Source of the DNA: Mayamaea pseudoterrestris
Lineage: Eukaryota
Direction of reading: 5' to 3'
Length of the DNA: 64,000 nt
Assembly (NCBI GenBank): GCA_027923505.1
Contig: BROI01000009.1
Span: 496,001-560,000, forward strand
Notes under the pieces: generated by a model
Told to the model about the DNA's origin: nothing
The model's database searches: none
What the model saw: only the letters and a program-made list of their open reading frames with translations
Program-made: the position numbers and the translations under genes
Shown here: positions 1-43,199 of the stretch, one piece after another
Position numbering within the stretch: the stretch's first letter is position 1
Layout: each line of letters begins with the position of its first letter

Positions 1-240
1 CTGTTGAAGGTTGAAGAAGCCATGCTCGACTTGAAACTCATTGGCAGCAGTCGTGGCGTCTTCTTGGACGGATCTCAAGGCAGCCGACGTTTCTCGTGCC
101 GCAAATTCTTCAGCCGTTTGAAGGTCAAGGGCAAGCTGCATGTCGCGAGCCATGAGCTCGTCTGCCATAGTGACAGTGGATGAGCTTGTCTTGTTGTTGT
201 CATCATTGACATTCCGGTCGATGTTGCTGTTGGCGGACAT
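1..240 (-). CDS. 5' part of a second copy of the DDI1-like aspartyl protease gene (continues off the left edge of the window)
   Basis: Bases 1-354 are identical by eye to 6975-7328. The ATG at 240 corresponds to the ATG at 7214 (MSANSNIDRN...). Confidence 0.8.
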   Translation of the reverse strand, partial: MSANSNIDRNVNDDNNKTSSSTVTMADELMARDMQLALDLQTAEEFAARETSAALRSVQEDATTAANEFQVEHGFFNLQQ

Positions 241-354
241 GACGGAGGAGGCGATGGCAAACGAACGACGAAAGGAGTGAGTGCAAGCAAGCCAAGGCGT
301 TTCAAATGATGTCTACTGACGCCGCAAGCAGCTTTGCGTTTCCTATCGTTTGTC
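1..354. repeat. Direct repeat, copy A (truncated by window edge), of 6975-7328
   Basis: Exact match at offset 6974; the copies diverge after ...CCTATCGTTTGTC (354 / 7328). Confidence 0.97.
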
Positions 355-6449: not shown

Positions 6450-7214
6450 CTAACCCCTTCCAGGACGGTGTCTTCGAAAGATTGATGGAATCCGGCTCGA
6501 GATGGACCTTGTCGCTTCTGTAGTTGGTGCTAGTCGACGGGCAGTGGCATCACGAATCATTCGCTCGCAGTCTTTACGAGCCTTGCGAGCATCCCGAACG
6601 TTTAAAAACGGTACCTTGACTCCATCCTTTCCTCCAAAGCACAAGCAGTCACTCTCCATGTCGATGACACATTGAAACCGTCTCATTTGATCCAATCCGA
6701 GCACAACCGATGGCAGCTCCGAGTCCAGCACCAAAAAGTATAGTCTAAACTCGACATGCCCAACGAGACAAATCAGATTCTCCACGACTCCCACAATATT
6801 AGCACTTCCAACGCCTCCGCAGGCACCGGAAACACTAGCATTGAGCTTGTCCATCAACCCAAGCTTTCGCAGGACAACAAGACTCATGGCTGACATTGAC
6901 GCACCCGAGTCAACCAGTAGATTCACCTTGCGATCATCAAGTGTGCAGTTGACAAATAACATGTGATCATCTTGCTGTTGAAGGTTGAAGAAGCCATGCT
7001 CGACTTGAAACTCATTGGCAGCAGTCGTGGCGTCTTCTTGGACGGATCTCAAGGCAGCCGACGTTTCTCGTGCCGCAAATTCTTCAGCCGTTTGAAGGTC
7101 AAGGGCAAGCTGCATGTCGCGAGCCATGAGCTCGTCTGCCATAGTGACAGTGGATGAGCTTGTCTTGTTGTTGTCATCATTGACATTCCGGTCGATGTTG
7201 CTGTTGGCGGACAT
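6450..7214 (-). CDS. DDI1-like retropepsin (retroviral-type aspartyl protease domain) protein, 254 aa
   Basis: Catalytic LLVDSGASMSAMS, flap-like GGVGSANIVG and LGLDQMRRFQCVIDM are typical of the DDI1 RVP domain. The N-terminus has a UIM-like segment (DELMARDMQLALDLQTAEE). No UBL or UBA domain is evident. Confidence 0.88.
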   Translation of the reverse strand: MSANSNIDRNVNDDNNKTSSSTVTMADELMARDMQLALDLQTAEEFAARETSAALRSVQEDATTAANEFQVEHGFFNLQQQDDHMLFVNCTLDDRKVNLLVDSGASMSAMSLVVLRKLGLMDKLNASVSGACGGVGSANIVGVVENLICLVGHVEFRLYFLVLDSELPSVVLGLDQMRRFQCVIDMESDCLCFGGKDGVKVPFLNVRDARKARKDCERMIRDATARRLAPTTEATRSISSRIPSIFRRHRPGRG

Positions 7215-7328
7215 GACGGAGGAGGCGATGGCAAACGAACGACGAAAGGAGTGAGTGCAAGCAAGCCAAGGCGTTTCAAATGATGTCTACTGACGCCGCA
7301 AGCAGCTTTGCGTTTCCTATCGTTTGTC
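6975..7328. repeat. Direct repeat, copy B, of 1-354
   Basis: Exact match to 1-354. Confidence 0.97.
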
Positions 7329-7706
7329 GGGCGAATGTTTATAAAGCAGTCAGCAATATGTATATCGCCACGAGGCAGTCTGCGTTGGTGTTTGAAGGAA
7401 AGGTCATCATCACGTTGCCCATGGTCATTTTCCAATCCGATTATTCATCAGCCCCATACGACATCCAAATTCAGTGCCGCTTTAATCATCATTGGATCAA
7501 TGACGTCATCCAATTGCTGTGCGACATAAAGAGAGGTTTGCCTCGTTACCGCGTTACTACGACTTGAATTTGCCGCCGCCGATGCCGATCGTCTCACAGT
7601 TGCTTAGCCGAGTACATTGCCAATTCACTACAAAGGACCTTTAGACAGCTTCATTGTTTGTTTATGATAAGGTTGATTTGAGTCTGAGTTCTTCGGGCTT
7701 GGAGTT

Positions 7707-7780
7707 GGGGACAGTCCATGGGGGAGCAGTCCACTGGGGAACAGTCCATCGGGGAATAGTCCATTGGGTATAGTCCAGTC
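7707..7780. repeat. Degenerate 15-bp tandem repeat, 5 copies (core GGGNRNAGTCCA)
   Basis: AGTCCA at 7713, 7728, 7743, 7758 and 7772. The minus strand reads ...QWTIPRWTVPQWTAPPWTVP. Confidence 0.9.
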
Positions 7781-8916
7781 GCAACGTCACAACTTTTATG
7801 TGTCGATTGCTGGTGCACACTTGTTCGAATGATTCTGGTGGTTGGGTCTGCTTGCTAGGATTAATCCTTTCCAGCTTTCTTAGATCATTAGTCTGAATGG
7901 AGTCTACTTTGGCCTCGGCTGGACGATTCACCTATTCGAGCAAGCACTTATAAATTTGGCGGCTCTGATCATGGATCGAGCGGCACTGGGTGTAACAGTG
8001 AATGTTGTCAGGTGTCACACAGCTGGGAGGCGTCCGGACGGTTTTGCGTGCAGTTACATAATAGCTACGAAAGTGGCTCCCAGACCTGGCGCCTCCATCT
8101 CAAGGCTTTGATACTAGCGCTTATGATTAACAATCGTGAGTCCCTTTATGGCACATCTCGCTGAACCCACGTTTTCCCTGGCGAAGATAGACCACCTTGA
8201 CGTGGTGCTGGGGCTTTCCCACTAAGAGTCTATCATAAAACAATTCTTGGACATGGAACTTTTGCTGATTATCGACATCGACCGACCTGCTGCCTGGCAT
8301 GGCAACCACTAAATGCCCGTGGCAGAGTGGCGCAAGGCAGTGGAGTGGGACTCAAGTTGGTGGCACTCGAGCTTGTGGTGGCGAGTGGCAAGACAGTAGG
8401 CACACTATGAAAGTACTTTACTGAATTGTGACTATTACAGTTTTCGTTTACATTTGTAACTTTTTGTGCTTACAAAATTGCTTTCGCTTCCTTGGTCAAT
8501 CGTGCTGCCCGTGAGTTGTACGAGCAGTGCAAAGCGATGCGCTTGATGATACAACTGCTCCTGCAAATGGTTGCAATGCAATCAATGTACTCGAGCAGTT
8601 TTCGTTGCCTTGCTGCCATTGGAGATGAGGATGAAACCACTTTCTAGTGCAGCGCGCTGCAAATCACGTAGCAATAGATCCCAGCTTTCTTGGTGTAGCG
8701 AAGTTGTATCATTTGCAACTTGCTTTAATCGATGGACTGCTCTACCATCTACCTACCTAGTCAAAAGCTTGCTACAAGTAAAAAGCAACTTGTAAGCTAA
8801 ATTAATTACTCTTGGTGCTTTTTCTCGGTATAAGAAACATATATATCATTATCTCCATCTCGTCCTTCATTCGTCGCTCGACACGACATACTCTTGTGCT
8901 CTCGCTTTCCATGAAC

Positions 8917-9055
8917 TTAAAAGTTCAAGCAGTGCTTGGGACCGACATTCTTGTCTTCCATGCTCTGCATGCATTCTTCGAATACATCCTCCTCTTCATT
9001 GTCTAGCTTTTGCATGCATTCTTCGAATACATCCTCCTCTTCATCGTCCAGCTTC
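8917..9055 (-). pseudogene. Displaced original C-terminal coding segment of the 12412-9952 gene
   Basis: Reads (Q)KLDDEEEDVFEECMQKLDNEEEDVFEECMQSMEDKNVGPKHCLNF*. It joins in frame to ...QKLDATTQKLDRYLIEG when one TGTCCCT copy and 9063-10153 are removed, and it continues the QKLD repeat. Confidence 0.82.
8966..9055. repeat. 45-bp tandem duplication (15-aa unit QKLDxEEEDVFEECM on the minus strand)
   Basis: TGCATGCATTCTTCGAATACATCCTCCTCTTCATYGTCYAGCTTY occurs twice. Two of the three differences are synonymous on the minus strand (CAA/CAG, CTA/CTG). Confidence 0.93.
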
Positions 9056-10395
9056 TGTCCCTTTTTCAAGCGCCGTCACTTTCTGCTATCAATACAGCCA
9101 AGATTGCTTTCAATGCAGCCATGGAGGAACTCCACCATCTCGACAAGTCATTCATGAGCAAGATCAATGATATTCTAGCTGGAGCAAAAGGCAGTGATGT
9201 CGCCTCGATTGGCAAGCATTTATACGCCTGTTATCCTTCCTTTGCCAAGCTGGACATGCAGAAACTGATTCCACTGGCACTCAAGCCAATTACGCAGGAA
9301 AAGATCAATTGGTTGGCACGAAACGATCTTCCTTTCAAGGATTGTATTGATAATTTGATCAAGGAGCATGTTGCGGAGTTGGCGGCGCAAGCCGCTCGAC
9401 TCAACGCCAATGACACAACTTTGCAGCAGCATGATGGGCGCTTGACCAGTCTTGAAGGTTGCCATGACGCTACTGAGAACCGCATCGATATGCACGATGG
9501 ACACTTGAAGCAGCTCAACAAATCCAACAAGATTCAGGCGAACGTGAATGAGCTCATTCATTTTCGTATCGAACAAAACGAAGACACTTTAAAGGCTCAT
9601 GACGTACGCCTGGGAGCCACGGAAGCCAACGTCCAGGAGCTTCGCAAAGACTTGGGGGCGCATGGATTTCGTCAATATGGCACGGAACTCAAAGTCCAGC
9701 AGATGGGCGGAGACTTGGCAGCGCATGGAGCACGTCATGATGCCACGGAAGCACGTCAGGATGTCTTGGAAGGCAAGGTCCAGCAGATGGGTGGAGACTT
9801 GGTGGCGCATGGGGCACGTCATGATGCCACGGAAGCACGTCAGGATGTCTTGGAAGGCAAGGTCCAGCAGATGGGCGGAGACTTGGAGGCGCATGGAGCA
9901 CGTCAGGGTGTCTTGGAAGGCAAGGTCCAGCAGATGGGCGGAGACTTGGTGTCACATGGAGCACGTCAGGAAGTCTTGGAAGGCACGGTCCAGCACATGA
10001 TCCAGCAGGACAAGAATGCGCGCTACAACTACCATCTTACGCTCCACGACACGCAAATCACGGCTCAGCAGGCAGTCAATGCCAACCAGCAGGAAGTCAA
10101 CGCCGCCACTGCGCAGAAGCTTGATGCCACTACGCAGAAGCTTGATCGATACTTGTCCCTCGATCAAGTATCGATCAAGCTTCTGCGTAGTGGCATCAAG
10201 CTTCTGCGCAGTGGCGGCGTTGACTTCCTGCTGGTTGGCGTTGACTGCCTGCTGAGCCGTGATTTGCGTGTCATGGAGCGTAAGATGGTAGTCGTAGCGC
10301 GCATTCTTGTCCTGCTGGATCATCGTGTTCGCCATGTCCTGCTGAATCATGTGCTGGACCGTGCCTTCCAAGACTTCCTGACGTGCTCCATGTGA
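9010..10395 (+). CDS. Mirror ORF created by the inverted duplication (near-copy of the C-terminal half of the minus-strand gene); translation doubtful
   Basis: 461-codon ORF that starts at TTG; the first in-frame ATG is at 9121. It reads through the loop into antisense sequence. Confidence 0.25.
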   Translation: MHAFFEYILLFIVQLLSLFQAPSLSAINTAKIAFNAAMEELHHLDKSFMSKINDILAGAKGSDVASIGKHLYACYPSFAKLDMQKLIPLALKPITQEKINWLARNDLPFKDCIDNLIKEHVAELAAQAARLNANDTTLQQHDGRLTSLEGCHDATENRIDMHDGHLKQLNKSNKIQANVNELIHFRIEQNEDTLKAHDVRLGATEANVQELRKDLGAHGFRQYGTELKVQQMGGDLAAHGARHDATEARQDVLEGKVQQMGGDLVAHGARHDATEARQDVLEGKVQQMGGDLEAHGARQGVLEGKVQQMGGDLVSHGARQEVLEGTVQHMIQQDKNARYNYHLTLHDTQITAQQAVNANQQEVNAATAQKLDATTQKLDRYLSLDQVSIKLLRSGIKLLRSGGVDFLLVGVDCLLSRDLRVMERKMVVVARILVLLDHRVRHVLLNHVLDRAFQDFLTCSM

Positions 10396-11277
10396 CGCCA
10401 AGTCTCCGCCCATCTGCTGGACCTTGCCTTCCAAGACACCCTGACGTGCTCCATGCGCCTCCAAGTCTCCGCCCATCTGCTGGACCTTGCCTTCCAAGAC
10501 ATCCTGACGTGCTTCCGTGGCATCATGACGTGCTCCATGCGCCACCAAGTCTCCGCCCATCTGCTGGACCTTGCCTTCCAAGACATCCTGACGTGCTTCC
10601 GTGGCATCATGACGTGCTCCATGCGCCGCCAAGTCTCCGCCCATCTGCTGGACTTTGAGTTCCGTGCCATATTGACGAAATCCATGCGCCCCCAAGTCTT
10701 TGCGAAGCTCCTGGACGTTGGCTTCCGTGGCTCCCAGGCGTACGTCATGAGCCTTTAAAGTGTCTTTGTTTTGTTCGATACGAAAATGAATGAGCTCATT
10801 CACGTTCGCCTGAATCTTGTTGGATTTGTTGAGCTGCTTCAAGTGTCCATCGTGCATATCGATGCGGTTCTCAGTAGCGTCATGGCGACCTTCAAGACTG
10901 GTCAAGCGCCCATCATGCTGCTGCAAAGTCGCGTCATTGGCGTTGGGTCGAGCGGCTTGCGCCGCCAACTCCGCAACATGCTCCTTGATCAAATTATCCA
11001 TACAATCCTTGAAAGGAAGATCGTTTCGTGCCAACCAATTGATCTTTTCCTGCGTAATTGGCTCGAGTGCCAGTGGAATCAGTTTCTGCAGGTCCAGCTT
11101 GGCAAAGGAAGGATAACAGGCGTATAAATGCTTGCCAATCGAGGCGACATCACTGCCTTTTGCTCCAGCTAGAATATCATTGATCTTGCTCATGAATGAC
11201 TTGTCGAGATGGTGGAGTTCCTCCATGGCTGCATTGAAAGCAATCTTGGCTGTATTGATAGCAGAAAGTGACGGCGC
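9070..11277. repeat. Long inverted repeat (fold-back): left arm 9070-10155, loop 10156-10164, right arm 10165-11277
   Basis: The arms are reverse complements, e.g. CTTGATCGATACTTG-tccctcgat-CAAGTATCGATCAAG at the centre. I counted about 15 substitutions plus one 27-bp indel (10324-10350, present only in the right arm). Confidence 0.98.
9694..9996. repeat. Coding heptad tandem repeats with 84, 84, 63 and 63-bp units (mirrored at ~10350-10655)
   Basis: GTCCAGCA anchor at 9694, 9778, 9862, 9925 and 9988. Unit VQQMGGDLxAHGAR(HDATEAR)QDVLEGK; all unit lengths are multiples of 21 bp. Confidence 0.95.
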
Positions 11278-12412
11278 ATGCGACTTTTCAACCTTCTCCA
11301 GCTTGAGCTGCGCCTGGCGCAAGCTCTTGGTCTTCAAAGTGATTTCCTTGGTGTGTACAACAAAGGCGGATCCTTGATAAAGGTCTAACATGCTTGGACT
11401 TGTTCGCTGTTTGCAGAATGCTTCGACGTGATTCTTGCTGTACCCCTGTAGGCCTGTCAAGCTCTTGGAAAGACGATCAACAGCGTTAAAACGATCCCAT
11501 TCTGCAATTGCAAGCATTCCTCCGAATGAAGCTGGAATGATTGGCTCACGAAGATATTTGAGGCCGCACGGCGAATCGACGGAGATGCCATCGGCGTAGT
11601 CCATGAGTGCTAGCTTGACCTCTTTCTCTCCTACCTTGATGCAATCGTTGGGACAAGCCTTGAGCGACTCCATGATCTTGAAAACGTCTTCAAGTGTGAA
11701 AGCGAAAACATTCTTGGGGAGCTTCATATTCTTGCCGTCGGCAGCCGCCTTGTTGATGTCGTCAACCGAAACGCCCATTTGGAGGCAGACGACTCGGGCC
11801 ATCGCTTCGAAAGCCATGATCTTGTGTTTCATGGCATCCAAGTCGCTCATATTGAAAGTCAAGGCGTCATCCTCGCCTATAATGGTCGAAAAGGAGTAGG
11901 CAAAAAGGTGTGAGTAGAGCAAGAGTCGAGAGGCATGGCAGGAGCGCTAGTTGGCAGCAGCAGCAGCAGCAGGCACGCCACGCTGCACGTTTGGTCTCAA
12001 CTGTAGACTTACCATGATCCGCCGCCGCCGCCGCATCGACTCCTCCCGATGACGTGAAAGCTCCAATCAAGTCGTTGCTTGCTCCATTGCTTGCTCCATC
12101 GCTGCTGCGCAGCGAGTCGCCGCCGTTGACAAGCTGGAGGGAGTCGCTCAACCCATCCCCATTCGTTCCATCACGCACGAGCACAAGGACGTCACCATCA
12201 AAGCCGTCACCCCAATCATCGTCGTTCATTCCAGAACGGCTGGCCGCAAGACTTGTAGCGCGCGCATTGCGCGCCGATCCGTTCGACTCGGCCGCAGGCG
12301 CATGGCTGCCGTCCTGCACGTTGCCGGTGCCGCTACCGACAAGACTGCTCGACACCGCTGTGCCATCCTGGCGCGGAGACCCCGCAGGGACATCCACTTT
12401 CTCTTTATTCAT
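9952..12412 (-). CDS. Orphan protein (low-complexity N-terminus, helical domain, long heptad coiled coil); 2 exons (12412-12013, 11876-9952); 3' end disrupted by its own inverted copy
   Basis: A GTAAGT...TACTCAC...ATAG intron (12012-11877) joins the 272-aa and 656-aa ORFs in frame (DH-G-EDDAL). The start codon is uncertain (upstream ATGs exist). Current product ~774 aa; reconstructed pre-insertion product ~753 aa. Confidence 0.72.
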
Positions 12413-12639
12413 TCGACTCGCCGCAGAAGGACTTCCAAACAAAGGTGTAGTAGTGCAATGGCTGTTCATGTCGAGAGTTGATCGCATGCTCCCAGCTAGA
12501 GCCGCTACGACATTAAGTTGCGTGTTAACTACCACGACCGGTACCGGTAGGTTTCGTTGACGAGAAAACTTCCCTGTAGAATAATGTCTGACGACAGTTA
12601 CAGTGGTACACACTTTATACATTAAACCATAGCAAGTTA

Positions 12640-13210
12640 CTGTAGCATGTACAATGAGCATACAATGGTCACTCATGTAAAGCAAAGCACATTCAAATTA
12701 CACCGGTAAGTCTGCCGCCTCATTCCCTAGCATGACCTCCCGGTAAGTATCACCGCTGGCGCCGTCGGACCCCAAACAAAATTACAAATGCATTGCGGTT
12801 ACAAGGAGTCATGGCAGGATGCTGTAGCACATATACTACATACAATGACCGTTTTCTGGGCCAAATCCAAGGTCTGCCACGCCGTTCCACGGCATGGCCT
12901 CAATATAAGCGCCCGCACTGACGGACTCCAACCAGATGGTTAACCATTGCATTGCGGATACCATGAGCCATGGCAGGGTTGTTGGAGCACACAGTCGCCG
13001 TTCTCTGGTGAAGTTAGGCGCCTTAAATCGAAGGTCTGCTGCGCCATTCCCTAGCATGGCCACAATATCAGCGCCGGCACTGCTCCAACCATGCATTGCG
13101 AATACCATGAGACTTGGCAGGAAGTTGCTGGGGCATACAATGGCCGTTCTCTGGAAAGTTAAGGCGCATCAAAATCCAAGGTCTGCCGCGCCGTTCCTTT
13201 GCATGGTTTC
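12640..13210. repeat. Degenerate ~150-160-bp tandem repeat, ~3.5 copies, upstream of the hairpin gene
   Basis: Anchor GTCTGC...TTCC..(A/G/T)GCATG at 12710, 12872, 13034 and 13181. Shared blocks TGCATTGCG, TGGCAGG, CATACAATG and CCGTTYTCTGG. Confidence 0.85.
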
Positions 13211-14559
13211 ATGACCTACTTATCATTTGCCAGCAAAGGCAGCACTCGATGTCATCAGAATGGCGGCGGAAGTGACAATCGGAGCGGTCCAAAAAGGAGC
13301 GTTGCCGCTTACACAAGGGGGAAGAGGAAGAGGTGCAGCAAATGCCACTGTTGATGCGGGATGCCCTGTTCCTGCTCCAGCATTGACCAAAGAAAATGCG
13401 AGCGCAATGAACCGAGCAAGAGTAGTAAACACCATGTCGGTTTTTTGTATCTGCAAGACTGTGAGGTAATGCAACAAAAGTATGGGTCAGTTGACCGTGC
13501 GGGCGAAGTGCAATACCTTCGGATTGTGAACCATTGGAACCTTGCGGAACGTTCATGCCCCTTTAAAGCGCGTGACAGCGTGTCATTCGACCTTCCTGTT
13601 GGAAATTCATGGCATCAGTCAAACGACAAGGTTTTGACACCATCTGCTCTGTAGTTGTCGCGTCACATCGCGATGTAGTAGTTGTCTCGTAAATGAGCAA
13701 CGAGCGCTGATGATGATGGTGCGAGGCAACCGGCGCTTCAATCGCGAAAATGTCGATGCTAGGGCTCAAGAGTTAAAAGAAATCTTACTTATGTAGCAGA
13801 CATTGACGCGCGCCACTTACATATTTACATGCAGTAAGAACACGTCTGGATCGACATTTGTATTCGATCCTCGGTGCGCTCAGTTACAATGCACGACAAG
13901 GCGTCGACTCGGTAGCTGAAATACCGACGTACGATTTATCGCGGCACTTGATTGTTTACGTTCTTTATCGGATTTGCGGTCGGGACTATCTTATGAACAG
14001 GCTGGATAATGGCATAGTACGGTATCTGGATGCTCCCGAACAGCAAGAACGTGCCGAATGCACGACAATTAAGCTAATGAGTTTTGTTCGTCGCGGCTTT
14101 CTTGACTAGGAAAAATTGACGATACGCTGAGCACACGCAATCTTGTTGGTAGCAGCATCGTCGATCGAAATGCTACAGATGACGTTCGCCGTAATCGCAA
14201 GTTTGCGCCTGTGTGCGATTATGGCGAAAGACTCGACAATGTTGCGGACCAGGGAGATGGTAGCCTGCAACAAGGCGGATCAGCGAGCCAGATTGTTAAC
14301 ATGAACAACGCGCGTATGGATGTGCACGGTAAATTGATCGACCTGTTATACATACGAAAGTAGATAATGACAATAATGATTATATATAGTATGCATAGTG
14401 GCTGTCGTCAATTTGCTGACAATGGCACATTGTGCAAGGAAAAGGAGCAGCACTGCTTGGTCTTGATTAGTTGAATGGTACGTGAAATTAAGTCAGTCGC
14501 AATGTTTATGTATATATTGGTTGTCAGACAGGCAATGGCACATTGCGCAAAGAAGAGGC

Positions 14560-15786
14560 CTAGGGAGCTCGGCGCTGCTTGTTCTTGATGAGTTGGATGA
14601 TTTGTGAAGCAAAGTTAGTCGCGTTGCCGGGATGACCAATGCGATTTTGAAGTTCTGTGAGATTCTTCTCAGTTACACCGAGGTCCTTCAAGCGCGCAGC
14701 AATCTGCTCGGCGTAGTCTTCCTTAGTAAGCTTCTTCACTTTGCCCGAGCTATCAAGCGCGCAAAGAATCTTGTGACGAGAATCATTCGTGAAAGCATTG
14801 CTCCGCATAAACTTGGTAAAGCTTGCACTGGCTTGAAGCTCGCTTACTCGTACATTGGCTTCATGATCGTCACGCTCGAGGAGACGTTCCAACATTTGTC
14901 CTTGCTTGACTTGGTTATCATTGGAACGTTTGAAAGCTTTCTTGAGGAATTCGACGACTTTCGTGAAACCATTCTCCAAAACCTGGCCCTGCTTGACTTG
15001 GTTATCATTGGAACGTTCGAAAGATTTCGTGACGAACTTTTGATGATTCTCATCGGCCTTGCGTTTCGCGTTGACGACATCGAGAGTCTGTTGGACGACG
15101 GCGAACCCTTTCTCCAAAACCTGTCCCTGCTTGACTTGGTTATCATTGGAACGTTCGAAAGCTTTCGTGACGAACTTTTGATGATTCTCATCGGCCTTGC
15201 GTTTCGCGTTGACGACTTTGAGAGTCTGTTGGCCGACGGCGAGACCTTCGGTGGTGGTGTCACGCACCTCCTTGTTGTTGTCCGTTAGATACGAAATCTC
15301 CGCCGCTGAACGTCGCTGCTGACGCTTCTCAAAGGCTTTCGTAATCTCCTCTCCCTTTGCAACAAAAATTTCAGGCCCATACTGGTTTAAAGCAGCCATA
15401 GGACTATACAATTCAAATTTGGCATCGACGAACGGAAAAAAAGCATTCACCCACGAACGTAGTTTAGGATCTTGTCGGATCGTACCATAACGAGCAGCCT
15501 CGAAAACAATGTCCGAAGTGGCATAGCTCTTTGCAAACTCGCCCGCTGCATGAGTCAATAACGCGAGAATGTTTGACTCTTTCGTGACAATTTTGTCAGT
15601 GCTAGCATTGCGCAAGCATTCCATGTTGCCGTAGTGCCCAACTTGATAATTCTCGTAGAAATACTTGCGACCGTCTTTGTCTTTAATACCGACGAATGTA
15701 GTTCCATTCTTTAAGCCATACATCAGGCTATCGTACGTACGGTCAAGGAGCGTGTAAAAATCGCGAGTTGGAGGTTGCTGGCTCAT
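14560..15786 (-). CDS. Orphan protein, 408 aa, with internal 46-aa (138-bp) tandem repeats forming a predicted coiled coil
   Basis: Uninterrupted ATG-initiated ORF. Unit G(L/F)AVxQQTLxVVNAKRKADENHQKFVTKxFERSNDNQVKQGQVLE occurs twice plus a partial third copy (~14890-15250). Confidence 0.72.
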   Translation of the reverse strand: MSQQPPTRDFYTLLDRTYDSLMYGLKNGTTFVGIKDKDGRKYFYENYQVGHYGNMECLRNASTDKIVTKESNILALLTHAAGEFAKSYATSDIVFEAARYGTIRQDPKLRSWVNAFFPFVDAKFELYSPMAALNQYGPEIFVAKGEEITKAFEKRQQRRSAAEISYLTDNNKEVRDTTTEGLAVGQQTLKVVNAKRKADENHQKFVTKAFERSNDNQVKQGQVLEKGFAVVQQTLDVVNAKRKADENHQKFVTKSFERSNDNQVKQGQVLENGFTKVVEFLKKAFKRSNDNQVKQGQMLERLLERDDHEANVRVSELQASASFTKFMRSNAFTNDSRHKILCALDSSGKVKKLTKEDYAEQIAARLKDLGVTEKNLTELQNRIGHPGNATNFASQIIQLIKNKQRRAP

Positions 15787-19360: not shown

Positions 19361-22300
19361 CTAGCGTTGCCCGTTCCAGTCCCAGGCCACTTGTTTTTGC
19401 CGCGGATCCACTTGACCTTGCCGCTGTTCTGCTTGACCTTGACGCTGTTCTGCTTGACCTTGCGGGAGGTTTGCCGCTGGAACATGCATGTCCATAACTG
19501 CTTGTTGGTGTACCGCTAATTCTTGTTTCATGTCATAAACCTTCGCATCCAGTTTGTCCAACTGTAATTGTACGCTCGCAATATCATCCCGATTTTCATC
19601 AATATCAGACTGATTATTAGTTCCGCTTTGTTGCTGAGCAATGAGTTGTTGTTGCAGTGCATCGATTTGTTGTCGCAGTGCATCGATTTGGGCGGCGAGA
19701 CCACCAGCATCATTACCACGACCAAAAAAAGGCGCAGCCATACGTCGGAGAAATGGCGCAACCATACGTAGCAAGAATGGCTGATTCGCCGGGTCGCCTT
19801 GTTGTACAGCATCAAATTGGGTAGCGACACTAACAACGTTGACGTCAACTCGATCAACAGAAACCTGCTGCGTCAGGTCACGCGTCGCTCCGCCGTGATC
19901 AGCCACAGCCTTGTTGAGATTGTCATCATCGCCACGCAAAGATGCTTCCAAAACTTGATTTTCGGGCTGACTCACTGTTGCATCACGCTCTACCTGTGGG
20001 TCAAGAGTGCGTGTCGCCTCGACATTGCCGAGATCAATTATGTCGCTTTCCAGAGGTGCTCCCATTGCTACATCATGCAATTGTTGATATTCCCCCGACA
20101 AATGCTCATTCGCTTGGACACTGATCTGTCGCGGCACAGAATTGTACCGTTTCGCTTCTTTGTTGCTTCTTTCGATTACCAAGCGTTCGAAGGTTTCCAA
20201 CTCGGCCAAAAGGTTCGTCATAGACGGCACGTGCGTGTAAAAAACAGTTCTGAAGAGTTTTTTCATGTGCATGACGTTATACTCCTCTCCACTCCGCTTT
20301 GCCCGCACAAGAAAAAACTTTCGCGCAATTCCAAAAAGCAAGTACACTGCTTTGGCGGAAAGAGGTAACACCATCTTCTGCCCCTCCCGTGACAAGTGAA
20401 CTAGGTCGTAAAGGGCAGCGGACTCCTCTCGATATATGTTAACATACCGCCTGCCTTCGGATCCAGCCTCCGTTTCATTTTTTTGGACTTTATTTAATAT
20501 CTGACGTGCCAAATCACAATTTAAATATCTTCTCTTTTTTGTACCAACTTCAAACTTTAGCTTCTCAGGACCAATGCCCAAATCATCCAAACATAAGCGT
20601 TCCGCTTGGATTTCCGACATAGCGTTAAGCTTGACCAACAATTCACTTGCAAACTTGCTCAACTTTTCCCAAGTATACTCGTCGACAATGTCACGGATTC
20701 CGTCGCGATTGATTGTCGACATAATCTGCCAGGTATCAACAACCTTGCCTATGTAATGAATATCAGAAAGAATGAATTATGTAAGACAATGATTGACGTC
20801 AAAAGTAGCAAGGCTGCTCCTGTCTGATACGTACGCATTCGTTCCTCCTCCTCAAAAATGACACTGTCATCGACGGCCAGTTTGGCAGTCTTGCGCTTAC
20901 TTGGATTGCTATTTTCAGCCTTGCGCTTGTTTTGCTTGTGAATCAGTTCTTGGCCCGCTTGTCCTTGCCGCTGTTTCGCTTGACCCTGTTCCGCTCGTTT
21001 GTCTTTCAGGGCCGCTCGTTCTTGCCGCTGTTCCGCTTGACCTTGCCCCTGTTCCGCTCGTTTGTCTTCCAGGGTCGCTCGTTCTTGCCGCTGTTCCGCT
21101 TGACCTTGCAGGAGTTCCGCTCGTTCGTGTCCATGCGCCGTTTGTTCTTGCCGCGGACCCGCTTCAATTGCTCGTTGGTTTACCGCTCGAACGTGTCTCA
21201 GGCCAGTACCAGTAATTTCAGGCCTCTTCTGTTCTTTGAAATGAATCTTACCTTTACGCGAATGACTCTTGACCACCGAACGGAAATCGGACATATTATA
21301 CAAAATATGGCACATGATCGGCGTGTTCGTATGAAATATTGTGCTGACAAGCTTGTCCATGTCCTTTTTGGTAAAACCGACTCCAGTGGTCATCGCGCGA
21401 TAGGTAAAGAATTGCATAAGACATTTTGCAAGAAAAAGGATGGCTTTAGCCGAAAGGGGCAGGACCATTTGTTCAACTCCATTGGCGCAGTATTTTAGAT
21501 CATACAACATGTTGGGGTCTTCCTTGTAACGCTTTCTCCGGTCTATGCAAGCTCTCGAGGCCTTCTTTTTCAAACAATCCTGGATCGTTAATATTCCAAT
21601 CGGGTCCAAAAACTTGTAGGCTTTGCAACGTTCCAAATACTCCTTGGAGTTTAGCTCTTTTTCTGTGATTCCTAGTTGGCTTAGCTCGAGTAACGCTTGG
21701 TCTTCCGACATGGGTCGGACCTCCTTCATCAGCAAGCTCGCATACTGGCCCAGCTCTTTCAATGTATCGTTGTCGGCCATGTCGCTAATACCTTTAAAAT
21801 CGACCTTTTGCATGAAATTGCATTGGTCGTTGGTCGAACTATGCTTTTGCTCTTTGTGGCTGCGTGCCGAGCCAGAGGGTCCACCACTAATGACAAACTC
21901 GCGCAGCTCCTCAAACATGTCTTTGAAGAAAGCAAGACCCTCGTTCGGTATCTTGGAGGAGCTCTTGTTGCTGTCGTCGTCATCGTTGCTGCCTTCCTCG
22001 TCTTTATTTTTGTCGTCGTCGTCGTCGTCGGTCTCGACGTCTTCGTTACTAGCTTTCAATGCCGCTCCCGACGGCCTTTTGCGTAAGTAACGGTGCTCGG
22101 TGACCTGGCTAAAGCGGGACTTGCGCTTATTTTGCTTGTGCGTCGTGCTATCTTCCGGTTCGTAGTCACTGTCCTCGTCCATCGACGAGTCAGCAGACGT
22201 GTACAGCACTTTCTGATGCGGCTGGCGAGGCAGCGGACATTTCGTCTCACTTTCCTCGTCATCTGACGACGAGGAGGCAATGTTGCGCTTGACTAACTGA

Positions 22301-42061: not shown

Positions 42062-43199
42062 TTAATTGTGGACATCTTCATTCACCGAAGCCTGCTCACC
42101 AACCAGCTTGTCCAATTTGGCTTCGACACGCTGCATCCTCTGCGTAAGCCTGCGAATCTCTTCCTTCGATTCCCGTTCGATACGCTGCTCCTTCTGCGTA
42201 AGCCTGCGAATCTCTTCCTTCGATTCCCGTTCGATAAGCTGCTTTTTCTGCGTGAGCCTGCGAATCTCTTCCTCCGATTCCCGTTCGATACGCTGCTTTT
42301 TCTGCGTGAGCCTGCGAATCTCTTCCTCCGATTCCCATTCAGCAGTCATGAGCTTCTCTCGCATTCTATCTTCGAGAAAGTCCATACCTTGAGCGTGCTG
42401 CCTTACCTGCGTGTTCATCACCTCCAACATCAAGGTTATAATAGCTTAATGATCCATTCCCAGGGCCCTCAGCTCAATCACGCTTGTTTCCAAATCCTCG
42501 TATCGACTTGCTGGCATCCCATCAGTGATTTGCAACACGCCGCGCTGTCTCCAACTATCCTGCTGAAAGCAATCGCCCAAGCACTCAGGAGTGAAAGCAT
42601 CGTGCACAGGTACCGGTTAATCGGAATGCGAGTACGGTGAACGTCGCATAGGTGTGCAGAGAACAAGACGTCGGCTATAATCACTTCCAGATACACGTCT
42701 TGAGAGAGGATAACTAGTCACAAATTGAAGAGTGTCTTGAAGATGCTGTTTAATGAGACTAAGTTCGTCACGATCACGATTGTACGGGATCGAAGTTTGC
42801 GCGATGAAGAGTTGACACTCTGCCTGCAACTCGATGTCGCTGGTTTTCGGCGAGGACAAATGATTCATACTGCGGGCCAATTTTGATGTACTTGGTTCCG
42901 TTGCTGTCTCTTATCTGAATTGAATCGCCCAAATGTAAACCATCGTAGAATAGTGCGCAGAGGCTGCTCGAGACCTTGAGAATACATCTGCCATCATCCG
43001 TAAACAGATCTGAAAGATGCTCAAACTCTACAGAAGCAAGCTGCCAAATTTTCTTGTCATCTTTCAACTGATACACTGGAACCCCGAGAGACACGCGAAG
43101 GTCAAACTGGTGCTGCAAGTCTGAAGCGATGAGAGTCGTCTCCTCTGCCGGAACATCCGACAGAATTCGACGAATCGAGGCGTGCAGGACGTTAGCCAT
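42062..43199 (-). pseudogene. Disrupted orphan gene: globular N-terminus plus 18-aa coiled-coil repeats; one frameshift (~42880) and two in-frame TAA stops (42619-42617, 42448-42446)
   Basis: ORFs 42617-42880 and 42062-42433 are in the same frame, and the sequence between them is open apart from the two TAAs. ORF 42774-43199 overlaps in another frame. Confidence 0.65.
42124..42336. repeat. 54-bp tandem repeat, ~4 copies (EEIRRLTQKxQRIERESx on the minus strand)
   Basis: CTGCGTRAGCCTGCGAATCTCTTCC at 42140, 42194, 42248 and 42302. Confidence 0.95.

What the first reader, a model, noticed from the sequence alone, without database searches (positions are those of the whole stretch)
9256..10767. 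Arm divergence is dominated by CpG transitions: a methylation footprint on the hairpin
Manual comparison gives ~15 substitutions, of which 11 are CG>TG/CA. Nine CpGs are lost in the left (inserted) arm, at 9283, 9415, 9417, 9460, 9720, 9792, 9950, 10027 and 10080. Two are lost in the right arm, at 10273 and 10767. The other four differences are at about 9256, 9348, 9401 and 9813. Established: 5-methylcytosine deaminates to T, and diatoms methylate repeats mainly in the CG context. Inference: the inverted repeat has been persistently CG-methylated, consistent with homology- or small-RNA-directed silencing. It is also a real, aged structure rather than a read fold-back. The 9:2 asymmetry may reflect residual coding constraint on the original arm.
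Basis: partly seen in the sequence, partly recalled or inferred. Interest (0 to 1): 0.72.

Follow-up and report, generated by a model that had tools for sequence, protein, structure and literature searches.

The report
CpG-decay footprint at a diatom hairpin gene
A diatom gene carries a real inverted copy of its own tail, and most differences between the two copies are the kind left by methylated DNA, but the same bias appears in the unrepeated DNA beside it, so it marks the locus and not the hairpin alone.

Summary
The arms 9067-10155 and 10165-11280 differ at 16 of 1089 aligned bases plus a 27-nt indel. Eleven differences are CpG transitions at exactly the listed sites, 9 lost on the left and 2 on the right (odds ratio 16.7, p=2e-7).

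The right arm belongs to an orphan coiled-coil gene of Mayamaea pseudoterrestris. The left arm lies between that gene body and its true last 49 codons. Short-read contigs from two studies bridge the outer junction, so it is not a nanopore fold-back. They also show a second, un-duplicated copy.

- Allelic SNPs in the adjacent single-copy flank show the same bias, 5 of 7 (odds ratio 15.5).
- The 7.5-11.5 kb stretch, with one further window at 12.5-13.5 kb, is the only CpG-poor part of the window.
- The footprint is therefore locus-wide, and probably older than the duplication.
- Coding constraint does not explain the 9:2 asymmetry, because synonymous losses are 4:1.
- Methylation, small RNAs and the phase of the variants remain untested.

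The parts
8920..9066 (-). Region C: the authentic last 49 codons and stop codon of the gene. It is now separated from the gene body by the inserted arm, and contains a 45-nt tandem repeat (8966-9055).
   Evidence: The minus-strand frame is open to a stop codon. The last 31 residues of the paralogue P0003 match 9012-8920 at 65% identity.
9058..9069 (.). Outer junction between region C and the inserted arm. The arm mismatch at 9069 suggests that true homology starts at 9070. The 3-nt CAA at 9067-9069 recurs at 10165-10167.
   Evidence: The junction is bridged with 0 differences by X1 record 4 and X2 record 12 (9028-9099) and by X4 record 25 (9012-9194).
9067..10155 (+). Left (inserted) arm: an inverted copy of the 3' 1.1 kb of the gene body. 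It carries 9 of the 11 CpG losses and lacks the 27-nt segment.
10156..10164 (.). 9-nt spacer at the centre of the palindrome.
   Evidence: No listed short-read piece bridges it (69 pieces were not shown).
10165..11280 (-). Right (original) arm, continuous with the upstream coding sequence. It carries 2 of the 11 CpG losses.
   Evidence: The junction at 11280/11281 is bridged by X1 record 8 and X2 record 16 (11248-11900, 0 differences).
10324..10350 (-). 27 nt present only in the right arm. They lie between two 15-nt direct repeats, so the likeliest reading is a deletion in the left arm.
   Evidence: The right-arm form is seen in X1 record 5 and X2 record 15.
11281..12469 (-). Upstream, unduplicated part of gene MPSEU_000525900. 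Exon 2 runs to about 11877 and exon 1 is at 12008-12469.
   Evidence: tblastn of P0002 on the window.
8825..8982 (.). Single-copy flank with two allelic short-read contigs that differ at 7 sites. Five are CpG transitions (8873, 8897, 8931, 8933, 8952).
   Evidence: tables 3 and 8.
7501..11500 (.). CpG-poor, TpG/CpA-rich stretch. Its CpG observed/expected ratio is 0.76-0.93, against a window mean of 1.11 (sd 0.13).
   Evidence: The seven lowest of 127 one-kb windows start at 7501, 8001, 8501, 9001, 9501, 11001 and 12501.

Best explanation
The 2.2-kb palindrome is a genuine inverted duplication. The 3' 1.1 kb of the body of an orphan coiled-coil gene (MPSEU_000525900, minus strand) was copied in reverse and inserted between the gene body and its true last 49 codons. 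This truncates the reading frame on this haplotype.

The locus lies in a roughly 4-kb CpG-poor stretch that is most likely CG-methylated. Recent substitutions there are dominated by 5-methylcytosine deamination (CpG to TpG/CpA). This holds both between the two arms and between alleles in the adjacent single-copy DNA.

Shown: the structure, the substitution spectrum, its enrichment, its presence in the flank, and the local CpG deficit.
Inferred: that methylation is the cause, and that the arm differences arose after the duplication on one chromosome.
Not shown: that the hairpin itself recruits the methylation. The footprint reaches beyond the repeat and seems to predate it.
For: Spectrum in the arms:
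- 11 of 16 arm differences are CpG transitions, odds ratio 16.7, p=2e-7.
- 0 of the 11 are transversions, and the left-arm losses are 4 C>T and 5 G>A.

Spectrum in the flank:
- 5 of 7 allelic SNPs in the single-copy flank are CpG transitions, odds ratio 15.5, p=0.0014.
- This fraction is indistinguishable from the arms (Fisher p=1).

Controls and composition:
- Older tandem-repeat differences in the window show no such bias: 5 of 34 outside the gene and 9 of 48 inside it.
- The seven lowest CpG o/e values among 127 one-kb windows all lie at this locus. TpG+CpA o/e peaks at 1.43-1.45 over 9001-10001.
- Both arms are CpG-poor, at 0.79 and 0.86.

Structure:
- The outer junction is bridged by short-read contigs in 3 of the 4 runs laid, from two studies.
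- The left arm shares with the right arm the 31 nt next to the centre, which the un-duplicated copy lacks. It was therefore copied from this haplotype's own gene.
- Comparison with the gene's internal repeats polarises 9720, 9792 and 9813 as changes in the left arm.

Literature, passages read:
- Inverted-repeat constructs in Phaeodactylum cause de novo CG-only methylation that spreads along the transcribed region (PMC2724275).
Against: - No methylation measurement was available.
- Phase is not verified. Short-read contigs are mosaics of left-type and right-type letters. Both letters were seen at only 4 of the 9 sites covered by listed pieces in 9256-9720 (9256, 9283, 9348, 9460). G at 9580, and the right-type letters at 9401, 9415 and 9417, were seen in 0 of the 4 contigs that cover them.
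- The palindrome centre is not bridged by any listed piece.
- The assembly is nanopore-based, merged from two assemblers and short-read polished, in a strain with 2.97% k-mer heterozygosity. Nanopore accuracy is reported to drop in inverted duplications (PMC7229812, abstract only).
- The CpG deficit does not follow the transcription unit. It misses 11.5-12.5 kb and runs about 1.4 kb past the stop codon.
- No transposon domain was found nearby to explain a methylated island.
Confidence: 0.5

Rival explanations
1. Hairpin-specific silencing. Transcription through the palindrome makes a 1.1-kb double-stranded RNA. Small RNAs from it direct CG methylation to both arms, with spreading. The CpG decay is then a consequence of the duplication.
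For: A near-perfect 1.1-kb inverted repeat lies inside a transcription unit. There is a precedent in Phaeodactylum: inverted-repeat constructs induce CG-only methylation that spreads along the transcribed region, terminator included but not the promoter (PMC2724275, passages). 25-30 nt small RNAs coincide with methylated regions (PMC4247016, passages). Flank C, which shows the same bias, is transcribed 3' sequence of the same gene. CpG losses cluster on the rearranged block: left arm plus flank C lost 13, their comparators 3, binomial p=0.021.
Against: Small RNAs would match both arms equally, yet the losses are 9:2. Both arms share the CpG deficit, and it continues to 7.5 kb, about 1.4 kb beyond the stop codon. 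That points to a state older and wider than the duplication. No RNA or small-RNA evidence could be obtained.
Confidence: 0.2
2. The arm differences are not post-duplication mutations. They are allelic variants of the un-duplicated homologue, placed on one arm by consensus or polishing of a collapsed diploid assembly, or by real gene conversion from the homologue into the collinear right arm. The spectrum would then simply be the local allelic SNP spectrum.
For: A second copy with the native B-C arrangement is present in runs X1 and X3, and its C-side end also in X2. Reported heterozygosity is 2.97%, and the assembly was merged, polished and purged of haplotigs. Arm divergence (1.5%) is below the flank's allelic divergence (4.4%), and both the CpG-transition share and the roughly 4:1 asymmetry are the same in arms and flank. 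The short-read contigs are mosaics.
Against: Right-arm-specific sequence, including the 27-nt segment, and left-type letters at six sites both exist in short-read contigs, so at least two forms are real. The un-duplicated copy differs from both arms near the centre, in its 28 other letters and in G>C at 10230. The bias would still be a CpG-transition footprint; only its timing would change.
Confidence: 0.2
3. CpG sites mutate faster for reasons unrelated to methylation, or the CpG-poor stretch is foreign or compositionally odd DNA. On this reading no methylation is involved.
For: CpG sites are hypermutable in Schizosaccharomyces pombe, which lacks 5mC (PMC4704713, passages). In Phaeodactylum mutation-accumulation lines, CG, CC and TG dinucleotides were mutagenic (PMC6604790, passages). 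The gene is an orphan with a single distant paralogue.
Against: In S. pombe the CpG changes were mainly C>A (23 of 44). Here 16 of 16 CpG changes (11 in the arms, 5 in the flank) are transitions. The rest of the window has CpG o/e of 1.1, which argues against a general CpG decay.
Confidence: 0.06
4. A repeat-induced point-mutation-like process, in which a cytosine-methyltransferase-related enzyme mutates duplicated DNA, acted on the duplication.
For: The changes are C-to-T type and lie on a duplicated sequence. [quoted passage not shown]
Against: The density is low (1%) and the two copies are hit unequally, 9:2. The same changes occur in single-copy flank DNA. No such process is known in diatoms. 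Whether this genome has DNMT4 was not tested.
Confidence: 0.03
5. The differences are nanopore miscalls at methylated CpGs that survived polishing because short reads map ambiguously to the two arms.
For: The assembly is nanopore-based. Base-calling degrades in inverted duplications (PMC7229812, abstract).
Against: Left-type (CpG-less) letters at 9256, 9283, 9348, 9401, 9415, 9417 and 9460, and the right-type A at 9580, are all present in short-read contigs. The flank SNPs come from short reads alone.
Confidence: 0.01

Closest known systems
CG-methylated islands of diatom genomes (Phaeodactylum, Thalassiosira, Fragilariopsis; PMC9998398, passages read)
   Same: An isolated stretch of a few kb in an otherwise CpG-replete region, involving repeated DNA and CG-context-specific changes.
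   Different: Known islands are defined by measured 5mC and mostly cover transposons. Here methylation is only inferred from substitutions and CpG o/e, and no transposon domain was found.
Inverted-repeat transgene silencing with de novo CG methylation in Phaeodactylum tricornutum (PMC2724275, passages read)
   Same: An inverted repeat of gene sequence inside a transcription unit, with a CG-only signature that extends outside the repeated part.
   Different: That case is an engineered construct acting in trans on a reporter, with methylation measured by bisulfite. This one is a natural rearrangement in cis, with no RNA or methylation data, and its footprint also lies outside the transcribed region.
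CpG decay of methylated repeats and pseudogenes in vertebrates and plants (general knowledge, recalled)
   Same: A 10- to 20-fold excess of CpG>TpG/CpA among recent substitutions, with a local CpG deficit and a TpG/CpA surplus.
   Different: It occurs in a genome region whose overall CpG o/e is 1.1, so the decay is confined to one locus.
Fold-back (inverted) duplications formed by replication template switching or break repair (general knowledge, recalled)
   Same: The A-B-spacer-B'-C layout, a short 9-nt spacer, and a 3-nt repeat (CAA) at the two insertion borders.
   Different: The mechanism was not tested. The centre is known only from the long-read assembly.

Membership tests
5mC-deamination footprint of a CG-methylated locus | Excess of CpG>TpG/CpA transitions among recent substitutions | tested here: met
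   11 of 16 arm differences, odds ratio 16.7, p=2e-7. 5 of 7 flank SNPs, odds ratio 15.5.
5mC-deamination footprint of a CG-methylated locus | Changes are transitions and occur on both strands | tested here: met
   16 of 16 CpG changes are transitions. The left-arm losses are 4 C>T and 5 G>A.
5mC-deamination footprint of a CG-methylated locus | Local CpG deficit with a TpG/CpA surplus | tested here: met
   CpG o/e is 0.76-0.93 at 7.5-11.5 kb against 1.11 (sd 0.13). TpG+CpA o/e reaches 1.45.
5mC-deamination footprint of a CG-methylated locus | 5-methylcytosine actually present at the surviving CpGs | not testable with these tools
   Only contigs of the runs could be laid. No signal-level or bisulfite data were available.
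Hairpin-RNA / small-RNA-directed methylation locus | Long near-perfect inverted repeat inside a transcription unit | tested here: met
   1089 nt at 98.5% identity with a 9-nt spacer, inside gene MPSEU_000525900.
Hairpin-RNA / small-RNA-directed methylation locus | Transcript through the repeat, and small RNAs from it | tested here: inconclusive
   No listed holder is on record as RNA. X4, whose kind is not on record, has contigs at 9012-9194 and 9274-9617. Small RNAs could not be tested.
Hairpin-RNA / small-RNA-directed methylation locus | Footprint confined to the repeat and the transcribed region, and equal on both arms | tested here: not met
   The CpG deficit runs to 7.5 kb, past the stop codon at 8920, and misses 11.5-12.5 kb. 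The arm losses are 9:2.
RIP/MIP-like repeat mutation | C>T changes restricted to duplicated DNA and affecting both copies | tested here: not met
   The same changes occur in the single-copy flank, and the two copies are hit 9:2.
RIP/MIP-like repeat mutation | A RID/DNMT4-type enzyme encoded in the genome | not tested
   No whole genome is held for this window.
Long-read fold-back chimera / assembly artefact | Junctions absent from independent short reads, and an A-B-B'-A' layout | tested here: not met
   The outer junction is bridged with 0 differences in X1, X2 and X4. The layout is A-B-B'-C, with C confirmed as the gene's own C-terminus. The centre itself is not bridged by any listed piece.

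The most novel reading that the evidence does not exclude
One chromosome of this diatom carries a natural, self-made hairpin allele of an orphan gene, beside an intact allele on the homologue. The hairpin triggers RNA-directed, CG-only methylation in cis, and this has eroded CpGs preferentially on the rearranged block: 13 losses in the left arm plus flank C, against 3 in their comparators. That would make it a natural case of allele-specific, hairpin-induced methylation in a diatom, and the strain's existing long reads could test it directly.
Probability: 0.15. Interest if true: 0.65.

Novelty: new member of a known kind. Interest (0 to 1): 0.4.

Why it matters
If methylation is confirmed, this locus is a natural counterpart of the inverted-repeat transgenes used to silence genes in diatoms. 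It would also be a rare case in which a methylated island in a diatom covers an ordinary-looking orphan gene and not a transposon. It leaves a measurable mutational cost of roughly 16-fold faster CpG loss.

The practical lessons are more certain. The annotated protein MPSEU_000525900 ends inside the palindrome and misses its true C-terminus. In addition, arm-to-arm differences in a polished long-read assembly of a 3%-heterozygous diploid cannot be read as post-duplication mutations until they are phased.

Tried and rejected
- Whole genome of the window: not held. No genome-wide SNP spectrum, DNMT search or repeat census was therefore possible.
- Earlier scan notes: none for this genome.
- Polarising with a homologue: near-length and shorter searches found only the protein itself. 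The full HMMER search found one paralogue at 28-31% identity, too distant for nucleotide polarity.
- RNA evidence: no RNA holder was listed.
- Copy number and zygosity from contig depths. In X1 the flanks are about 39, the arm contig 62.4, the right-arm-specific piece 33.6 and the alternative pieces 14-24. In X2 the figures are 138-152, 406, 428 and 96. The two runs disagree, and the tool states that depth is not a copy number, so I abandoned this.
- Palindrome centre: no listed piece bridges 10156-10164, and 69 pieces were not shown. The centre is neither confirmed nor refuted.
- Left-type letters at 9792-10080 could not be checked in listed pieces.
- LTR-retrotransposon reading of the 100%-identical repeat 1-354 / 6975-7328: rejected, because the ORFs between carry no reverse-transcriptase or integrase domains.
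- Pfam on ORFs in the CpG-poor flank 7.2-8.8 kb and at 12.8-13.2 kb: nothing above cut-off.
- Literature: the listings showed no paper describing a CpG-decay footprint on a natural diatom hairpin. Only the listings were checked, so this is not a claim of absence.
Full report
**1. The observation**

The repeat finder reports arms 9067-10012/10335-11280 and 9997-10155/10165-10323. A local alignment of the left arm with the reverse complement of the right arm joins these into one inverted repeat of 1089 aligned bases. It has a 9-nt spacer (10156-10164) and 27 extra bases in the right arm (10324-10350).

- CpG is intact on the right and lost on the left at 9283, 9415, 9417, 9460, 9720, 9792, 9950, 10027 and 10080.
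- CpG is intact on the left and lost on the right at 10767 and 10273.
- The non-CpG differences are at 9256, 9348, 9401 and 9813.
- The sixteenth mismatch (9069/11278) sits at the arm's edge and probably lies outside the true homology.

Eleven differences fall on 136 CpG bases and five on 953 other bases (odds ratio 16.7, p=2e-7). Against non-CpG G/C bases only, the odds ratio is 9.7. The 9:2 split alone gives p=0.065.

**2. What the locus is**

The right arm is part of a 664-codon open frame on the minus strand. Its translation (P0001) matches one database protein at 100% identity: hypothetical protein MPSEU_000525900 of the diatom Mayamaea pseudoterrestris. Pfam gives only sub-threshold coiled-coil hits.

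A full HMMER search finds one real relative, P0003 (MPSEU_000528700). It is on the same contig and is 28-31% identical. Its last 31 residues match the minus strand of 9012-8920 at 65% identity, ending at a stop codon.

The gene's authentic C-terminus (region C, 8920-9066) therefore lies to the left of the left arm. Reading along the gene, the layout is:
- A: 12469 to 11281, with an intron.
- B: the right arm.
- A 9-nt spacer.
- B': the left arm, inverted.
- C: the true C-terminus.

The annotated protein runs 11 residues into the antisense of the left arm, so its C-terminus is a product of the rearrangement. A CAA triplet occurs at both insertion borders (9067-9069 and 10165-10167). Together with the short spacer, this fits a fold-back duplication made by template switching or break repair. 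That mechanism is inferred, not tested.

**3. Is the structure real?**

The genome paper (PMC9724779, passages read) reports the following:
- a nanopore assembly at 52x with read N50 of 8.6 kb;
- two assemblers, merged;
- short-read polishing and purging of haplotigs;
- a diploid strain with 2.97% k-mer heterozygosity.

Artefacts therefore had to be considered. Seven public runs hold part of the stretch. Four were laid, all as short-read contigs.

The outer junction 9066|9067 is bridged without differences by X1 record 4 and X2 record 12 (9028-9099) and by X4 record 25 (9012-9194). These come from two studies, although the tool warns that the best holder may be the source sample. The native junction 11280|11281 is bridged by X1 record 8 and X2 record 16. 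A read fold-back would give A-B-B'-A' and would have no short-read support, so that reading is rejected. The centre is not bridged by any listed piece (69 pieces were not shown), and it rests on the long-read assembly alone.

**4. A third copy**

In X1 and X3 a contig follows the arm up to 10124 and then runs on for 33 other letters. The reverse complement of those letters overlaps the 8 loose letters that follow 9057 in X1, X2 and X3 (table 7; compared by eye).

This describes a copy in which B runs through 28 other letters straight into C. That is the un-duplicated arrangement. The length difference from this haplotype's inferred native join is 12 nt, so it stays in frame.

This copy lacks the 31 nt next to the centre that both arms share, and it carries G>C at 10230. 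The left arm was therefore copied from this haplotype's own gene and not from the other copy. In flank C (8825-8982), two allelic contigs differ at 7 sites in both X1 and X2.

**5. Controls for the spectrum**

Five of those seven flank SNPs are CpG transitions (8873, 8897, 8931, 8933, 8952). The odds ratio is 15.5, p=0.0014, and the share is indistinguishable from the arms. All 16 CpG changes (11 in the arms, 5 in the flank) are transitions.

Older differences between tandem-repeat units in the window show no bias: 5 of 34 outside the gene and 9 of 48 inside it.

The window as a whole is not CpG-depleted (o/e 1.10). In 127 one-kb windows (mean 1.106, sd 0.13), the seven lowest values (0.76-0.85) start at 7501, 8001, 8501, 9001, 9501, 11001 and 12501. 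TpG+CpA o/e peaks at 1.43-1.45 over 9001-10001.

The locus is therefore the only CpG-poor stretch of the window. The deficit covers non-coding single-copy DNA to the left of the gene, and both arms share it (0.79 and 0.86).

**6. Polarity and asymmetry**

Comparison with the gene's own internal repeat units shows that 9720, 9792 (both CpG) and 9813 changed in the left arm; 9950 is ambiguous. The 27 nt lie between two 15-nt direct repeats, so a deletion in the left arm is the simplest reading.

| CpG losses | Non-synonymous | Synonymous |
|---|---|---|
| Left arm | 5 | 4 |
| Right arm | 1 | 1 |

Both classes are equally lopsided, so coding constraint on the original arm does not explain the asymmetry.

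In the flank, the window's allele lacks CpG at 4 sites and the other allele at 1. Taken together, the contiguous block of left arm plus C lost 13 CpGs and its comparators 3 (p=0.021).

**7. Phase caveat**

The arm contigs from short reads are mosaics.

| Piece | Left-type letters at | Right-type letters at |
|---|---|---|
| X1 record 7 | 9348, 9401, 9415, 9417 (equivalent positions) | 9256, 9283, 9460, 9580, 9720 |
| X2 record 13 | 9256, 9283, 9401, 9415, 9417 | 9348, 9460, 9580 |
| X3 record 20 | 9401, 9415, 9417 | 9460, 9580 |
| X4 record 26 | 9283, 9348, 9401, 9415, 9417, 9460 (6 of 7 sites) | 9580 |

- Both letters are confirmed at 9256, 9283, 9348 and 9460.
- G at 9580, and the right-type letters at 9401, 9415 and 9417, were seen in 0 of the 4 contigs that cover them.
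- Right-type sequence, including the 27-nt segment, is confirmed by X1 record 5 and by X2 records 14 and 15.

Contigs show presence, not absence, and they do not give phase. With a third copy present, some arm differences could be allelic letters placed by consensus, polishing or gene conversion.

**8. Mechanism**

The most economical reading is a CG-methylated locus in which 5mC deamination dominates recent substitutions. Literature, passages read:
- Diatoms have isolated, highly CG-methylated islands in otherwise unmethylated genomes (PMC9998398).
- Inverted-repeat constructs cause de novo CG-only methylation that spreads along the transcribed region in Phaeodactylum (PMC2724275).
- 25-30 nt small RNAs coincide with methylated regions (PMC4247016).
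- Methylation-independent CpG mutability exists in S. pombe, but there the changes are mainly C>A (PMC4704713), unlike here.

The data do not show that the hairpin is the cause. The footprint is wider than the repeat, is shared by both arms, and is unequal between them.

**9. Verdict**

- The structure is real at its outer junction.
- The methylation inference is reasonable but indirect.
- The hairpin-specific and coding-constraint parts of the interpretation are not supported.
- It is a new instance of a known phenomenon, of moderate interest.
- It can be tested directly with the strain's existing long reads.

Noticed in passing
window 1-354 and 6975-7328: A 354-nt direct repeat, 100% identical and 6974 nt apart, which may extend beyond the window start. 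The ORFs between the copies have no retrotransposon domains (one PLAC8 hit, one DDI1-like protease). It is therefore not an LTR pair. It could be a very recent segmental duplication or an artefact of merging the two assemblies.
   Followed up: partly
window 6450-7286 (-): The ORF has an aspartyl protease domain of the DDI1 type (PF09668, E=8e-18). It overlaps the right-hand copy of the 354-nt repeat.
   Followed up: partly
window 10135-10165 (-), end of annotated protein P0002: The public gene model MPSEU_000525900 ends with residues read from the antisense of the left arm. It misses the conserved C-terminus encoded at 8920-9066.
   Followed up: yes
window 10076 / 10200 and 10230: One short-read contig (X1 depth 14.4, X3 depth 3.83) carries G>C at 10230 and a joint between opposite strands at 10076 and 10200. 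It may reflect a different repeat arrangement in the un-duplicated copy. I could not resolve its geometry.
   Followed up: no
window 8787 and 11863: Contigs in X1 and X2 (and in X3 at 8787) match the window only to the right of these points, and carry 65 and 255 other letters before them. This suggests further structural differences between the two copies or haplotypes around the gene.
   Followed up: no
window 8966-9055: A 45-nt tandem duplication (93% identical) inside the C-terminal coding region. The paralogue P0003 aligns to a single unit. One of the three differences between the units is a CpG transition.
   Followed up: partly
window 12701-13211, 14965-15246, 20952-21164, 42122-42340: Further tandem repeats, with units of about 54-162 nt at 82-94% identity. 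I used them only as a control for the substitution spectrum.
   Followed up: partly
P0003 (MPSEU_000528700, outside the window): The only relative of the gene has a weak, sub-threshold aspartyl-protease hit (PF13650, 20.3 bits against a cut-off of 24.3). With the protease gene next door, this hints that the family may derive from a mobile element. That would fit a methylated island.
   Followed up: no
run X2, loose ends at window 10022 and 10414: Two low-depth contigs begin with letters that look like a library adapter (recognised from memory, not tested). They should not be read as biological junctions.
   Followed up: no
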